Below, in pieces: positions 2,330 through 23,723 of a stretch of 29,697 nt of DNA (positions are counted from its first letter, which is position 1; each line of letters opens with the position of its first letter). The DNA lies in contig DSBP01000170.1 of assembly GCA_011049465.1 (NCBI GenBank), positions 1 through 29,697 of the forward strand, given 5' to 3'. The stretch is from a bacterium. GTDB taxonomy: Bacteria; Oederibacteriota; PGYV01; DSBP01. The notes beneath the pieces are model-generated. The model made no database searches and was not told the origin of the DNA. It saw only the letters and a list, made by a program, of their open reading frames with translations. The position numbers and the translations under genes are program-made.

Positions 2330-2486
2330 AGCCGGGAAAGCAGGCAACGGCGGAAGTTTATATTTGATATTTTATATTGTATAGTGAAGGAAAGAACGAG
2401 CTGAACAGTTAAAACTGAAAGCTGAAAGTTAAGGAGCGCGGGACAAAGGGTTTGAGCAGGTTTTGAATTGAGTTGTCCGGTTTAAC

Positions 2487-12149: not shown

Positions 12150-12492
12150 TTTAAAATTTCAACTTTCAGATGCCGTATTTGATGCTGCCCGCCCCGTCCT
12201 GCGATAGTGGTGTTAAGGCAAGGGTTATTTTGTAATCGTATTAACTTTAAAATTTCGACTTTTAGTTGCCGTATTCATCTCCGTTTAAGCGTTTTGCTTT
12301 GTTGTGAAAGTACTTGTAGGCGCGGACTTCAGTCCGCGGTATTTGAAATGCGCGCGAACTGAAGTTCGCGGCTACAAGGACTAAATCATACGTTGAGCTC
12401 TTAATATGAATAAGAATTAAGAATGGCAAATAGTTATTAGTGTTTAATGCTACCCACCCCGTCCTGCGTCAGTATGTGTTAGGGCAATGGTT
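12150..12492. repeat. Two pairs of imperfect direct repeats in the icd/M23 intergenic region
   Basis: 12150-12179 vs 12246-12275 (27/30 identical); 12182-12226 vs 12447-12492 (shared atgct.ccc.ccccgtcctgcg...tgtta.ggcaa.ggtt). Confidence 0.7.
12316..12375. repeat. GTAG-type REP doublet (two inverted palindromes)
   Basis: GTAGgCGCGGACTtcAGTCCGCG-spacer-CGCGAACTgaAGTTCGCGgCTAC. Confidence 0.85.
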
Positions 12493-12543
12493 GTTCAGCA
12501 GCCCGCAAAAAACAAGGATTAAAAACCGTGATGCGTCGTTTTT

Positions 12544-17185: not shown

Positions 17186-18283
17186 TTGAAGATACTTGTT
17201 GTGTCCCACAGTTCAGTGATTGAATACCACCAGCAAAAGCTTGAGATACTGGCAAAGGATTACGGCCACGAGATAACGCTCGTTACGCCGCCGTGGTGGA
17301 TGGAAGGGGGAGTCAGGGCAGAGGCCTTCACGGGCGGCTCGATAAAGTACCGTATCGGAAAGACGTTTGTGTTTAAAAAGCGCGCGTTTCATTTTTACTT
17401 TGACGCGGGCCGCATAATAAAAGAGGAGAATCCCGATATTGTCCACGTTGAGGAGGAGCCCTTTACCTTTGCGTGTTTTCAGTTTTTAAGCGCGGCGAAG
17501 AAAAGGGGGAAAAAAACGGTTTTTTTCACATGGGAAAATATCCGGAGGCGGCACAACCCCGGTTATGAGTTTTTCAACAATTACTGCATTAAAAACACGG
17601 ACGCGGCCATAGCGGGCAACAACGAGGGAAGGGATATTCTTGTTGAAAAAGGATGCAGGGCTCCGGTTTATGTGATACCGCAGTACGGAATTAACATGAA
17701 AGATTTCATTTTACGGGGCGGGGACGCGCCAAAAAGAGATTATAAAATCGGTTATGTGGGAAGAATACTGCCGGAAAAGGGGATAGTGGTGTTGATTGAC
17801 GCGCTCTCGGGGATTCCTGACGCGCGCCTTGTAATGGCAGGGACAGGAGCTTCCGGTTACACGGCTCTTGTCAGGGAAGCCGCGGAAAAGAAACTTGCAG
17901 GCAGGCATGAGTTTACGGGTTTTGTGGAAAGGGAAAAGATGGGAAGGCTGCTCGCTTCGCTTGATATACTTGTCCTTCCTTCGCTCACGACAAAGACATG
18001 GAAGGAGCAGTTCGGCAGGGTTATAGCGGAGGCGTTTGCCTCGGGCGTGCCTGTAATAGGCTCCGGCTCGGGAGAGATACCGAACGTAATAGGAGACGCG
18101 GGCCTTGTCTTCAAAGAGGGGAGCAGCGCTGACCTTGCGGGAAAGATTATGCATCTCATGGCAGACGGAGAACTTTATAAAAGCTGCGCGGAAAAGGGCA
18201 CGAAGAGGGTTTTGGAGCACTACACGAATGAGGGCATAGCAGCGAAGCTTGATTTTGTTTACCGCGCGCTTTTGAAAAGGTGA
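17186..18283 (+). CDS. Glycosyltransferase family 4 (GT-B)
   Basis: PDIVHVEEEP, YVGRILPEKG, EQFGRVIAEAFASGVPVIGSGSG (ExFG...E motif); TTG start after GAGGAGG. Confidence 0.92.
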   Translation: MKILVVSHSSVIEYHQQKLEILAKDYGHEITLVTPPWWMEGGVRAEAFTGGSIKYRIGKTFVFKKRAFHFYFDAGRIIKEENPDIVHVEEEPFTFACFQFLSAAKKRGKKTVFFTWENIRRRHNPGYEFFNNYCIKNTDAAIAGNNEGRDILVEKGCRAPVYVIPQYGINMKDFILRGGDAPKRDYKIGYVGRILPEKGIVVLIDALSGIPDARLVMAGTGASGYTALVREAAEKKLAGRHEFTGFVEREKMGRLLASLDILVLPSLTTKTWKEQFGRVIAEAFASGVPVIGSGSGEIPNVIGDAGLVFKEGSSADLAGKIMHLMADGELYKSCAEKGTKRVLEHYTNEGIAAKLDFVYRALLKR

Positions 18284-19017
18284 GCCTGATGCGCGAAGAG
18301 GCAGCGGCGCGGGTTAAGGGGATAATGGACGGTTTTTTTAGCCTTTTTTATCCGTCGCCGTGCGCCTGCTGCGGCAGGTATATAAAGGATTTCATCGGAA
18401 TGTATATATGCGCCTCCTGTTATAACGCGATAAGCCCAATACCCGCGGTTTCGTGCGTTAAATGCGGCAAGCCGCTTGACACGGCCGCGCTTGAGGAGTG
18501 CGGCGAGTGCGGCGTGTATAAAAAACTCTTTTCGGTTGTCAGGCAGGCAGGGCTCTATGAGAAAGGGCTCAAAGAGCTTGTCTGGCTCCTCAAATTCAGC
18601 GGAAAAAAAGAGGCGGCCCGTGTCCTCGCGAAACTGATAATGAACTCAAAAGCGGCAGCTCTCTTTGAGGGAGCCGGGCTCATAGTGCCCGTGCCGATGG
18701 CTGAACAGGCAAGGCGCGAAAGGGGCTACAATCATACTGAACTGCTGGCATCGATACTTTCAGGGCAAACATCCGTTAAAATGAGCAGGTGCCTTGTAAA
18801 GGTAAGAGAGACCGCGCCGCAAAACAGCCTTGAACGCAGGGAAAGGATAATGAATCTGAAGCGGGCCTTTAAGGCAATAAAGCCCGTAAACGGGTTTGTT
18901 GTCGTTGTTGTTGACGATGTCTACACCACAGGCGCGACCATGAACGAAGCCGCACGCGCCCTGCTCGAAGCCGGAGCAAAGGAAGTAAGGGGAGCCGCGG
19001 CAGCGAGAGCGGTATGA
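18280..19017 (+). CDS. comF: ComF family protein (zinc ribbon + phosphoribosyltransferase domain)
   Basis: CACC...CASC...CVKC...CGEC zinc ribbon; VPVPM..RRERGYNH; VDDVYTTGAT PRPP loop. Confidence 0.9.
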   Translation: MSLMREEAAARVKGIMDGFFSLFYPSPCACCGRYIKDFIGMYICASCYNAISPIPAVSCVKCGKPLDTAALEECGECGVYKKLFSVVRQAGLYEKGLKELVWLLKFSGKKEAARVLAKLIMNSKAAALFEGAGLIVPVPMAEQARRERGYNHTELLASILSGQTSVKMSRCLVKVRETAPQNSLERRERIMNLKRAFKAIKPVNGFVVVVVDDVYTTGATMNEAARALLEAGAKEVRGAAAARAV

Positions 19018-19028
19018 AAAACAATTTC

Positions 19029-19488
19029 AATTTGTAATTTGCAATTTTGAAGTTTAAAAGGCAGTTAAAAAAGAGGGCCGTAAAACAGGAGGGGCGCAGA
19101 TGAACAGGGAAGAATTAAAGAAAAGAACCAAAAGGTTTGCTTTACAGATTATCGGGTTTGTCGAGAAAATTCCCAAAACGTATGCGGGAAGGGTTATAGA
19201 AAACCAGATTTTGCGGAGCGGGGTTTCTGTAGGGGCAAATTATCGCGCGGTTTGTAAGGCGAAGTCAAGGAAGGATTTTATTAATAAACTGAATATAGTT
19301 GCAGAAGAAGCTGACGAGACACAGTATTGGCTTGAACTGCTTGCGGAATCTGGTATGATTAAACATGAAAATACAGCGTATTTGTATAATGAGGCGAGAG
19401 AAATAACCGCGATGGCCACCGCTTCTATCAGGACGGCGCGTCAAAACGGGGTTAAGAAGTATAACTTGTAAATTGCAAATTCAAAATT
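19029..19488. mobile_element. Putative intervening-sequence-like cassette: four-helix-bundle gene between inverted heptamer arms
   Basis: Arms 19029-19054 and 19463-19488 are reverse complements at 22/26 positions. Mobility is inferred, not shown. Confidence 0.5.
19100..19471 (+). CDS. Four-helix-bundle protein (TIGR02436 / 23S rRNA IVP / bAvd-like family)
   Basis: LKKRTKRFAL...QILRSGVSVGANYRAVCKAKSRKDFINKLNIVAEEADETQYWLELL signature; AGGAGG RBS. Confidence 0.92.
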   Translation: MNREELKKRTKRFALQIIGFVEKIPKTYAGRVIENQILRSGVSVGANYRAVCKAKSRKDFINKLNIVAEEADETQYWLELLAESGMIKHENTAYLYNEAREITAMATASIRTARQNGVKKYNL

Positions 19489-19507
19489 TCAACTTGCCGG
19501 GAAAAGG

Positions 19508-20185
19508 ATGTGCGTGATGGCATCAAAAGAAGGAACTCTTGTGCTTCTATCCGGCGGGCAGGATTCCACGACCGCTTTGTTTTGGGCCAAGAAGAGGTTT
19601 TCGCGTGTTGAGGCGGTGTCTTTTGATTATGGACAGCGCCACAGGGTTGAGCTTAAGCACGCGGCCAAAACAGCCGCGCTTGCGCGGGCCGGGCACACGG
19701 TGATGCCTGTCAGGGAGTTTGAAGCCATTAAATACAGCGCGCTTATAAAGGGCGCGAAGCGCGGGAAAAAAGACAGGGTGAATAAAAAACTGCCCGCGAC
19801 GTTTGTGCCGGGCCGCAACATACTCTTTCTCGCTGCCGCGGCCTCTTATGCCTACACAAAAAAGATTCACAACCTTGTTATCGGTGTCTCCCAGGTTGAT
19901 TACTCGGGCTATCCTGACTGCAGGCGCGGGTTCCTTAGCGCCATGGAAAAGGCGCTGTCCCTCGGCCTTGATTACAGGATAAAAATACACGCCCCGCTTA
20001 TCAATAAAACAAAGAAAGAGACGGTTCTGCTGGCGAAAAAACTGGGCGTCCTTCATTATTTGAAACACACGCACACCTGCTATGAGGGAAAAACCCCGGG
20101 CTGCGGCAAATGCGCGGCCTGCGTTTTACGCGCGAAGGGGTTTGAGGACGCGGGTGTGGAAGACCCGCTGTTTGAGAGGAGATAA
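19508..20185 (+). CDS. queC: 7-cyano-7-deazaguanine synthase
   Basis: LLSGGQDSTT, FDYGQRH..E, TFVPGRN, GYPDCR, THTCY and CGKCAACVLR motifs. Confidence 0.96.
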   Translation: MCVMASKEGTLVLLSGGQDSTTALFWAKKRFSRVEAVSFDYGQRHRVELKHAAKTAALARAGHTVMPVREFEAIKYSALIKGAKRGKKDRVNKKLPATFVPGRNILFLAAAASYAYTKKIHNLVIGVSQVDYSGYPDCRRGFLSAMEKALSLGLDYRIKIHAPLINKTKKETVLLAKKLGVLHYLKHTHTCYEGKTPGCGKCAACVLRAKGFEDAGVEDPLFERR

Positions 20186-20190
20186 GGGCA

Positions 20191-20297
20191 AGTTTGAATT
20201 TCTAATTTGCAATTTGGAAGTGTTGGCCGCAGAAACGGTAACAGGCGGTCTTGCGGGGATTTTCTAACTTCTAAATTGTAAATTTAAAATTCAAACT
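20191..20297. repeat. ORF-less long hairpin with heptamer-periodic arms
   Basis: 20191-20221 pairs with 20267-20297 (27/31 Watson-Crick plus 2 G-U) around a 45-nt loop. Confidence 0.8.
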
Positions 20298-23351: not shown

Positions 23352-23416
23352 AAAGAACAAGTTTGAATTTGCAATTTATAATTTGCAAATTATCCGCGGT
23401 CATGAAACCGCGCGAA

Positions 23417-23677
23417 GCCGGTAATCCGGATTTGGAATTGTTTTGTCTGTGTAGGCGCGGACTTTAGTCCGCGGCATTAAAGCGCGCGAACTGCCCTTCG
23501 GCTTCGCTCAGGATATTTAGTTCGCGGCTGCGAAGACGGATACAAGGGCAGAGTGCCGGTAATTCGGATTTGGAATTGTTTTGTCTGTGTAGGCGCGGAC
23601 TTTAGTCCGCGGCATTAAGGCGCGCGAACTGCCCTTCGGCTTCGCTCAGGATATTTAGTTCGCGGCTGCGAAGACGG
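23417..23677. repeat. Tandem 123-bp duplication, each copy a REP doublet with a loop insert
   Basis: 23417-23539 and 23555-23677 (period 138, 2 mismatches); GTAG REP starts at 23451 and 23589; heptamer arrays flank it at 23361-23391 and 23682-23708. Confidence 0.9.
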
Positions 23678-23723
23678 GAAGAAACTGAAAACTGAAAATT
23701 TTAAATTATTTTTTCCGGGAGAA

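What the first reader, a model, noticed from the sequence alone, without database searches (positions are those of the whole stretch)
19018..19507. Four-helix-bundle gene enclosed by inverted heptamer arms inside an mRNA operon (IVS-like cassette)
Seen: the gene sits between comF and queC. Its left arm (19029-19054, AATTTGTAATTTGCAATTTTGAAGTT) and right arm (19463-19488, overlapping the stop codon) are reverse complements at 22/26 positions. All four mismatches fall on the variable dinucleotide of an AAATT-NN heptamer, so the transcript could close a stem with regularly spaced 2x2 internal loops around the whole ORF. Known: this protein family was first described in 23S rRNA intervening sequences, which are bounded by a stem and excised, and it is structurally related to the RNA-binding DGR accessory protein Avd. 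Inference: this is a self-contained, possibly mobile or RNA-excised cassette in an mRNA, with the protein recognising the heptamer-periodic stem. There is no rRNA, reverse transcriptase or transposase nearby to explain it.
Basis: partly seen in the sequence, partly recalled or inferred. Interest (0 to 1): 0.75.

Follow-up and report, generated by a model that had tools for sequence, protein, structure and literature searches.

The report
Four-helix-bundle gene in heptamer hairpin
[quoted passage not shown] The two runs are ordinary copies of a repeat found about 200 times in this genome, so the case shows how an unexplained gene-plus-repeat module is built but does not show that it is an excised RNA.

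Summary
Arms 19029-19054 and 19463-19488 are complementary at 22 of 26 positions. All four mismatches fall on the variable dinucleotides. The arms enclose an intact PF05635/TIGR02436 four-helix-bundle (4HB) gene between a ComF-family gene and queC.

The arms are not a matched pair. AATTTNN runs occur about 176-244 times in this 2.08-Mb Goldbacteria-like MAG, against about 2 in a shuffle. 81% of random array pairs match as well, and the variable dinucleotides of hairpin arms do not covary.

The junction is a variable slot in relatives:
- a 10-15-nt empty gap (3 loci)
- an ORF-less heptamer hairpin (5 loci)
- a UPF0047 gene (2 loci)
- an orthologous 4HB gene with a different heptamer unit (1 locus)
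- the same 4HB clade one or two gaps away (2 loci)

About half of the 4HB genes sampled in the phylum carry inverted heptamer arms. This scan has noted the same layout on other DNA many times. In print, only the 23S rRNA IVS version is described.

RNA excision and protein-arm recognition remain untested. The long-range stem is weak and no RNA data exist.

Separately, the same arrays flank a 273-nt structured repeat with at least 87 copies, which has no Rfam match.

The parts
18280..19017 (+). Upstream host gene: ComF-family phosphoribosyltransferase with a double zinc ribbon. Its TGA stop is at 19015-19017, 11 nt before the left arm.
   Evidence: PF00156 plus PF18912; TIGR00201 at 110.8 bits, below the cut-off of 233.6. 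The glycosyltransferase(GT)-comF-queC gene order is conserved in relatives.
19029..19054 (.). Left arm: three AATTTNN heptamers followed by AAGTT at the inner end. It is one copy of the genome-wide array.
19087..19094 (+). Shine-Dalgarno-like AGGAGGGG, 5 nt before the ATG of the 4HB gene.
   Evidence: Read. Similar purine-rich motifs precede most relatives' 4HB genes.
19100..19471 (+). Four-helix-bundle gene, 123 aa, PF05635/TIGR02436. It is the only copy found in the assembly.
   Evidence: AlphaFold model pLDDT 93 with four helices. Best fold matches are 2RLD, 2GSC, then Avd 4DWL/8UB7.
19463..19488 (.). Right arm: the same array in reverse complement. It overlaps the last three codons and the stop of the 4HB gene.
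   Evidence: An identical 26-mer occurs elsewhere in the genome (maximum 26/26).
19508..20185 (+). Downstream host gene queC. The likely start is the ATG at 19517, preceded by AAGGA.
   Evidence: PF06508 at 237 bits; TIGR00364 at 225 bits.
20191..20297 (.). ORF-less hairpin of the same AATTTNN family just after the queC stop. This is the gene-free form of the element.
   Evidence: MFE -41.9 kcal/mol, z -5.5, 0 of 200 shuffles as good. Arm duplex -33.8 kcal/mol.
23358..23393 (.). Single AATTTNN array 7 nt after the stop of the TonB-dependent receptor gene.

Best explanation
This is one instance of a recurring module: a PF05635/TIGR02436 four-helix-bundle gene lodged in the loop of an intergenic hairpin made of inverted tandem heptamers.

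Shown here:
(1) The module is an insert into a conserved glycosyltransferase (GT)-comF-queC gene string, because relatives have comF and queC 10-15 nt apart.
(2) The hairpin and the gene are separable. The same junction holds ORF-less heptamer hairpins in five relatives, and this genome has 32 ORF-less hairpins.
(3) The arms are ordinary members of the genome's commonest dispersed repeat (consensus four ordered AATTTNN units then AAGT), not a co-evolving pair.
(4) The gene lineage has stayed in this neighbourhood for a long time. It has moved between adjacent gaps, and its arms have been replaced by different heptamer units.

Inferred:
- The gene is co-transcribed with the operon and translated from its own Shine-Dalgarno sequence.
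- The arrays act as sequence-specific recognition sites rather than as a stem selected for pairing. The cores are conserved while the NN positions drift without compensation.
- The most economical reader is the Avd-like, probably pentameric, 4HB protein itself. It would bind the arrays on RNA or DNA at its own borders and at about 170 other sites.

My odds: about 0.85 for the 'what it is and how it got there' part, about 0.3 for arrays as recognition sites of the 4HB protein, and about 0.25 for RNase III processing of the arm stem as in 23S rRNA intervening sequences.
For: Family assignment and fold.

Insert status and allele series at the comF-queC junction:
- Empty: L122, L124, L125.
- ORF-less hairpins: L038, L040, L041, L119, L121.
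- 4HB with ATGCANN arms: L037.
- UPF0047 gene: L120, L145.
- One-sided array: L173.
- Giant array: L042.

Same 4HB clade: the window, L037 and L038 group with 96/97 support, at 53-55% identity against 33% or less to other paralogues. L038 carries it in the GT-comF gap. L173 carries a 4HB fragment of 47 aligned residues, 55% identical to the window's, upstream of an epimerase gene.

Family-wide arms: 13 of 27 4HB loci from order- and phylum-level relatives have an inverted-repeat score of 12 or more, against 1 of 22 control ORFs in the same loci.

Generic arms: 176 arrays against about 2 in a shuffled genome; 244 pattern hits against 2 for the reversed control; random-pair statistics.

No covariation at NN: 37% Watson-Crick against 42 +/- 5% when arms are re-partnered. 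There is no G.U strand bias in 32 hairpins.

Polarity: hairpins are F-then-R in 10 cases and R-then-F in 2. Arrays just after stop codons read AATTTNN in the gene's sense strand in 32 cases and on the other strand in 11.

No sigma-70-like promoter and no intrinsic terminator was matched in the two gaps that flank the 4HB gene. An RNase III gene is present.

The Coxiella IVS has tandem heptamers in its RNase III-cut stem (PMC4990558).
Against: - No expression or processing data exist for this organism.
- There is one 4HB gene but at least three heptamer unit families in the genome: AATTTNN about 240, CTGAAAN about 100 and ATATTTG about 40. A one-protein-one-unit reading does not fit unless paralogues lie in the missing 18% of the genome.
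- In L037's genome the arm unit occurs at only two loci, so arms need not belong to a large family.
- Many relatives have near-perfect complementary arms (L016, L017, L028). There, a stem reading is as good as a binding-site reading.
- The covariation test rests on 12 hairpins and 63 cells.
- 59% of the AATTTNN arrays here are attached to an unrelated 273-nt repeat. The abundance of this unit may therefore reflect that element's spread and not anything the 4HB protein does.
Confidence: 0.65

Rival explanations
1. IVS-like RNA element. On the operon transcript the arms pair, RNase III cuts the stem, the comF and queC halves are separated, and the 4HB mRNA is released, possibly bound by its own product.
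For: - The only experimentally studied relatives work this way. The Coxiella 23S IVS has an S23p ORF, a 28-bp stem with tandem heptamers, and RNase III cuts at the first repeat (PMC4990558).
- The arm duplex is -18.3 kcal/mol, better than 500 of 500 shuffles.
- The MFE fold of 19015-19505 pairs part of the arms.
- RNase III is encoded in the genome.
- No terminator or promoter was matched in the gaps flanking the 4HB gene.
- The right arm is joined to the stop codon in all three orthologous cassettes.
Against: - The stem is 5 + 12 + 5 A/U-rich pairs with two 2x2 loops across 408 nt.
- It is absent from the centroid, and the whole fold has z -1.2.
- Arms do not covary and show no G.U enrichment on the sense strand.
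- The neighbouring ORF-less hairpin is far more stable, so selection for a stem is not evident at the gene-bearing copy.
Confidence: 0.25
2. Active mobile element. The arm-gene-arm unit, or the gene alone, moves into heptamer hairpin loops by an unidentified enzyme. The 4HB protein is the element's own factor, and other array-bounded DNA such as the 273-nt repeat is non-autonomous cargo.
For: - Empty, hairpin-only and filled alleles exist at one junction. The same 4HB clade occupies three different slots of one neighbourhood.
- A second, unrelated cargo (the 273-nt element) occupies inverted-arm loops at five sites and shares the arm family.
- The AATTTNN family is 8-80 times more abundant here than in three relatives.
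Against: - No transposase, recombinase or RT lies in or near the cassette.
- The two Y1 transposase genes have their own, different REPs.
- No target-site duplication is visible.
- There is a single 4HB copy in the genome.
- The orthologues have diverged about as much as ComF (53-55% against 50%), which fits vertical descent with rare moves.
- The 273-nt element carries its arrays in direct, not inverted, orientation.
Confidence: 0.15
3. Coincidence of neighbours. An ordinary small gene lies between two intergenic gaps, and each gap independently carries one of the genome's many heptamer arrays, so there is no cassette.
For: - The arms are generic.
- Arrays commonly follow stop codons.
- queC itself lies between an R array and an F array.
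Against: - The layout recurs around this gene family in other genomes with unrelated heptamer units: 13 of 27 against 1 of 22 controls.
- The same geometry, with the right arm on the stop codon, is kept in three orthologues whose arms differ.
- Relatives lack both gene and arms together.
Confidence: 0.07

Closest known systems
ORF-bearing intervening sequences of 23S rRNA (Coxiella burnetii S23p IVS; also Leptospira, Xanthomonas, Brucella per PMC4990558)
   Same: Same protein family (PF05635). A single small ORF of about 0.4-0.5 kb is enclosed by complementary termini. Tandem heptamers lie in the 5' arm upstream of the start codon (GACAGAT x3-4 in Coxiella).
   Different: The host context is an mRNA operon gap, not helix 45 of 23S rRNA. 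The arms here are weak (22/26, two 2x2 loops) and are copies of a genome-wide repeat. This gene has a strong Shine-Dalgarno sequence, whereas the Coxiella ORF is thought not to be translated. Excision is untested here.
Over-represented intergenic heptameric repeats (Xanthomonas GGGAATC, Nostoc GGGGAYT: PMC4692102; Geobacter metallireducens four-heptamer elements at 49 sites: PMC2700814)
   Same: Arrays of about four 7-nt units with conserved and variable positions, at dozens to hundreds of intergenic sites, some as inverted pairs (here).
   Different: Those papers do not link the arrays to 4HB genes. The units there are G-rich and were discussed as quadruplexes or regulatory RNA. Here the unit is A/T-rich.
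Avd, the accessory protein of diversity-generating retroelements (PDB 4DWL, 8UB7)
   Same: Four-helix-bundle fold, TM 0.72-0.82 to the model. Homology of PF05635 with Avd is stated in PMC10053308. Avd is a pentamer that contacts RNA and the RT.
   Different: 13-14% identity. No RT was found in the assembly and no TR/VR repeats lie nearby.
REP/BIME elements with RAYT transposases
   Same: Short palindromic intergenic repeats at gene ends, in hundreds of copies.
   Different: The genome's two Y1/RAYT-like genes are flanked by other, G+C-rich REPs. Heptamer arrays are tandem-periodic and have no associated Y1 gene.

Membership tests
PF05635 / TIGR02436 four-helix-bundle protein (S23p, 23S rRNA IVS protein) | Profile score above the curated cut-off | tested here: met
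   PF05635 at 72.3 bits (cut-off 33.8); TIGR02436 at 97.2 bits (cut-off 24).
PF05635 / TIGR02436 four-helix-bundle protein (S23p, 23S rRNA IVS protein) | Up-down four-helix bundle like 2RLD and 2GSC | tested here: met
   Model pLDDT 93 with helices 3-23, 28-51, 57-83 and 93-115. 2RLD TM 0.81-0.92 at 40% identity; 2GSC TM about 0.8.
PF05635 / TIGR02436 four-helix-bundle protein (S23p, 23S rRNA IVS protein) | Homopentameric ring | not tested
   2RLD and 2GSC have five chains each. No complex prediction was run.
ORF-bearing 23S rRNA intervening sequence | Inserted in a 23S rRNA helix | tested here: not met
   It lies between the ComF-family gene and queC. There is no rRNA match in the window at E<=1.
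ORF-bearing 23S rRNA intervening sequence | Complementary termini that enclose the ORF and contain tandem heptamers | tested here: met
   26-nt arms, 85% complementary, three heptamers each.
ORF-bearing 23S rRNA intervening sequence | Excision from the transcript by RNase III | not testable with these tools
   No sequencing run was listed. An RNase III gene is present. The fold is marginal.
Diversity-generating retroelement | Adjacent reverse transcriptase and TR/VR repeat pair | tested here: not met
   No RVT_1 match in the 82%-complete assembly. No long direct repeats in 18900-19650.
Transposable element (IS or MITE) | Encoded or identifiable transposase, element-specific terminal inverted repeats, target-site duplication | tested here: not met
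   The only ORF is the 4HB gene. The arms are generic repeat copies. No duplication is seen at the borders. There is no TnpB, and the Y1 genes have other REPs.
Transposable element (IS or MITE) | Presence/absence polymorphism at orthologous sites | tested here: met
   Empty (L122, L124, L125), hairpin-only and filled junctions are seen. This holds only between species with 43-57% ComF identity.
Intergenic heptameric tandem repeats | Excess of period-7 arrays, mostly intergenic | tested here: met
   568 period-7 arrays against 102-124 at periods 5, 8, 10 and 11. 156 of 176 AATTTNN arrays lie outside long ORFs.

The most novel reading that the evidence does not exclude
The heptamer arrays are a landing-pad or address system read by the Avd-like 4HB protein. 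In this genome, the single 4HB gene with its inverted arms would be the autonomous partner of a non-autonomous 273-nt structured RNA (or ssDNA) element. That element carries the same arrays and has spread to at least 87 copies. This would be an RT-less, transposase-less mobile or RNA-protein system of a new kind.
Probability: 0.1. Interest if true: 0.85.

Novelty: new variant of a known kind. Interest (0 to 1): 0.6.

Why it matters
Three loose ends of bacterial genomics meet here:
- the function of the very widespread 4HB/S23p family, which has been unknown since the 1990s
- the origin of ORF-bearing rRNA intervening sequences
- the unexplained excess of heptameric tandem repeats between genes

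This locus gives a clean allele series at one operon junction: empty, hairpin only, hairpin plus 4HB, and another small gene. It shows that the hairpin and the gene are separable layers, and that the arms follow the genome's repeat family and not the gene.

It also gives a testable contrast between a stem and recognition sites, because the arm cores are conserved while the NN positions do not compensate. With one protein and about 200 candidate sites, it is a simple system for binding and RNase III assays.

Tried and rejected
- Sequencing runs: none was listed for 18800-19700, so nothing can be said on expression.
- Rfam: no family matched the window or six repeat-bearing loci at E<=1, apart from one tRNA.
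- Closer relatives: scans of genome contigs and metagenome contigs with ComF found nothing above 57% identity. No strain-level empty allele could be sought.
- Coding reading of the 273-nt repeat: rejected. One frame is open in 29 of 65 copies downstream, but the 5' part has stops and there is no clear 3-nt periodicity.
- RAYT/REP origin of the arms: rejected. The Y1 genes are flanked by unrelated REPs.
- Sigma-70 promoter reading of the array: no acceptable -10 by inspection, and no hit in the scan.
- PADLOC and PHROGs: no match for the 4HB protein.
- UPF0047 gene of this genome (C188) as a second armed gene: rejected. It only neighbours a hairpin.
- 273-nt core motif in viral contigs: no match.
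- Literature: full-text searches found no paper linking 4HB genes with heptamer arms outside rRNA.

Full report
**1. The observation**

The window is the whole contig C1 of a 2.08-Mb, 357-contig MAG that is 82% complete and 48% G+C. Its closest ComF relatives are Candidatus Goldiibacteriota MAGs and some MAGs labelled Spirochaetia.

After the TGA stop of a ComF-family gene (19015-19017) comes a run of three AATTTNN units ending in AAGTT (19029-19054). Then come an AGGAGGGG Shine-Dalgarno-like motif, a 123-codon ORF (19100-19471), and the reverse complement of the same kind of run (19463-19488), which overlaps the last codons and the stop.

The repeat finder reports the arms as 26 nt and 85% complementary. 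The four mismatches lie on the NN positions and are not wobble pairs.

The ORF is a clear PF05635/TIGR02436 member. Its AlphaFold model (pLDDT 93) is a four-helix bundle. It is most like 2RLD and 2GSC, and then the DGR protein Avd. This agrees with the homology stated in PMC10053308.

**2. Is it more than chance?**

Against composition it is. The arm duplex is -18.3 kcal/mol against -7.5 +/- 2.5 for shuffles.

Against this genome it is not.
- Runs of three or more AATTTNN units occur 176-204 times, against about 2 in a shuffled genome. The pattern search gives 244 hits against 2 for the reversed control.
- They share an ordered consensus (units ending AC, GG, GC, GC, then AAGT).
- 81% of random array pairs match at 22/26 or better. 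83% of other arrays would pair with the left arm at least as well as its real partner does.
- The full cassette RNA folds no better than shuffles (z -1.2), and the closing stem is missing from the centroid.
- The ORF-less hairpin of the same family right after queC (20191-20297) is very stable: -41.9 kcal/mol, z -5.5.

**3. A family-wide layout**

TIGR02436 genes occur in 29 of 41 genomes sampled from the order and phylum, in up to 10 copies. Reading their flanks shows inverted tandem repeats of about 7 nt around most of them. The unit differs between genomes, and between paralogues of one genome: in G029, L010 and L036 differ.

A simple score finds inverted arms of 12 or more in 13 of 27 4HB loci, against 1 of 22 control ORFs from the same loci. 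Near-identical proteins share units (L024/L027/L030, L009/L012, L018/L022).

Earlier notes of this scan describe the same layout on other DNA in hundreds of genomes. I treat those as leads only.

In print I found the heptamers of the Coxiella 23S IVS stem and its RNase III excision (PMC4990558). I also found heptamer-repeat excess without any link to this gene (PMC4692102, PMC2700814). I found no paper on the operon version.

**4. The empty-allele test**

The glycosyltransferase(GT)-comF-queC order is conserved in 15 related loci. The comF-queC junction takes these forms:

| State of the junction | Loci |
|---|---|
| 10-15-nt gap holding only the queC ribosome-binding site | L122, L124, L125 |
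| ORF-less heptamer or double-heptamer hairpin | L038, L040, L041, L119, L121 |
| One-sided array | L173 |
| Array over 400 nt with an assembly gap | L042 |
| 82-nt AT-rich gap with no inverted repeat | L039 |
| UPF0047 gene | L120, L145 |
| 4HB gene with arms of unit ATGCANN | L037 |

The 4HB proteins of the window, L037 and L038 form a supported clade (96/97). They are 53-55% identical to one another and 33% or less to the other paralogues. L038 carries the gene one gap upstream, between GT and comF, with ATATTTG arms. L173 carries a 4HB fragment (47 aligned residues, 55% identical to the window's) upstream of an epimerase gene.

In all three complete cassettes the right arm overlaps or abuts the stop codon.

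So the module is an insert, and the hairpin and the gene are separable. The gene lineage is old in this neighbourhood: ComF is 50% identical between the same genomes. The arm unit has turned over completely. In L037's genome the arm unit occurs at only two loci. In L038's genome it occurs at about five. Only here does it belong to the dominant family.

**5. Stem or sites?**

This genome has 32 ORF-less heptamer hairpins, mostly at gene ends. In the 12 AATTTNN pairs, the variable dinucleotides of the two arms are complementary in 37% of cells. When arms are re-partnered among hairpins the figure is 42 +/- 5%. Allowing G.U on either strand changes nothing. G.U is not enriched on the sense strand.

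Hairpins have a fixed polarity: F then R in 10 cases against 2, with the AAGT end facing the loop. Arrays that follow a stop codon read AATTTNN in the gene's sense strand in 32 cases and on the other strand in 11.

Conserved cores with drifting, uncompensated NN fit arrays of recognition sites better than a stem selected for pairing. The sample is small, however, and other genomes have near-perfect arms.

Period-7 arrays number 568, against about 110 at the control periods 5, 8, 10 and 11. They fall into at least three unit families, yet only one 4HB gene was found. That argues against a simple one-protein-one-unit rule.

**6. What else uses the arrays**

59% of the AATTTNN arrays abut a 273-nt repeat, and all but one are co-oriented with it.
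- The repeat has at least 87 copies of 200 nt or more, on 115 contigs, and makes up 1.5% of the assembly.
- It often sits in tandem with arrays between units.
- Copies are about 82% identical.
- A closing stem of about 30 bp is kept in nearly all of them. It has many G.U pairs on one strand, few A.C pairs, and some double changes.
- It does not look coding and has no Rfam match.
- BLAST did not find it in 98 other genomes of the phylum, and its core motif has no match in viral contigs.
- Five copies lie between inverted arms, two of them with CTGAAAN arms. The hairpin loop therefore accepts at least two unrelated cargos.

No RT or TnpB was found. The two Y1 transposase genes have their own REPs.

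**7. Verdict**

It is a self-contained insert of the IVS-protein family with heptamer arms, and empty alleles exist. But the arms are generic copies, the long-range stem is weak, and mobility is slow. RNA excision and protein-arm recognition remain untested.

The nearest known thing is the ORF-bearing 23S rRNA IVS. This locus fails that family's defining location test, and its processing could not be tested. I therefore file it as a new variant of a known kind.

Noticed in passing
G000:C4:9681-9953 (= L002:1182-1454), with at least 87 further copies. Fragments in the window at 12181-12230 and 12449-12511 (minus strand).: A 273-nt dispersed repeat making up 1.5% of the assembly. Its closing stem of about 30 bp has many G.U pairs on one strand and some compensatory changes. 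It does not look coding and has no Rfam match. It was not found in 98 other genomes of the phylum, and its core motif has no match in viral contigs. It usually carries an AATTTNN array at its 3' end and is often in tandem. Neighbouring genes are mostly on the opposite strand. It is a candidate new structured RNA or ssDNA-level mobile repeat.
   Followed up: partly
L120:1110-1432 and L145:290-840 (relatives' comF-queC junction): In two related metagenome contigs the slot that holds the 4HB gene here holds a 145-aa UPF0047 (PF01894) gene instead. It is preceded in L120, or followed in L145, by CTTAAAA-type heptamers.
   Followed up: partly
G000:C73:5707-6219 (L107:1420-1932) and G000:C245:7-312: Two Y1/RAYT-like transposase genes. 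One has two G+C-rich REP types beside it in alternating orientation (C245); the other has one type, all copies upstream of the gene (C73). The REP type beside the C73 gene also occurs in the window at about 12317-12375 and 23451-23660.
   Followed up: partly
Window 2360-2380 and 23683-23705; genome-wide: Two further heptamer families, ATATTTG (about 40 arrays) and CTGAAAN (about 100 arrays). The same units form the 4HB arms in L038 and the giant post-comF array in L042. Unit families are therefore shared across species of the phylum.
   Followed up: partly
Alignment A2 (window, L037, L038 against other paralogues): The operon-resident 4HB clade replaces the family's common SNIAEG...GS..E motif with ANYR..C.AKS and EEADET.YWLELL. 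It is a distinct subfamily.
   Followed up: no
L018, control ORF: A gene that is not a 4HB gene, in a relative's locus, is flanked by inverted GCTTGGA/GCTTAGA heptamer arrays. This hints that other cargos exist elsewhere too.
   Followed up: no
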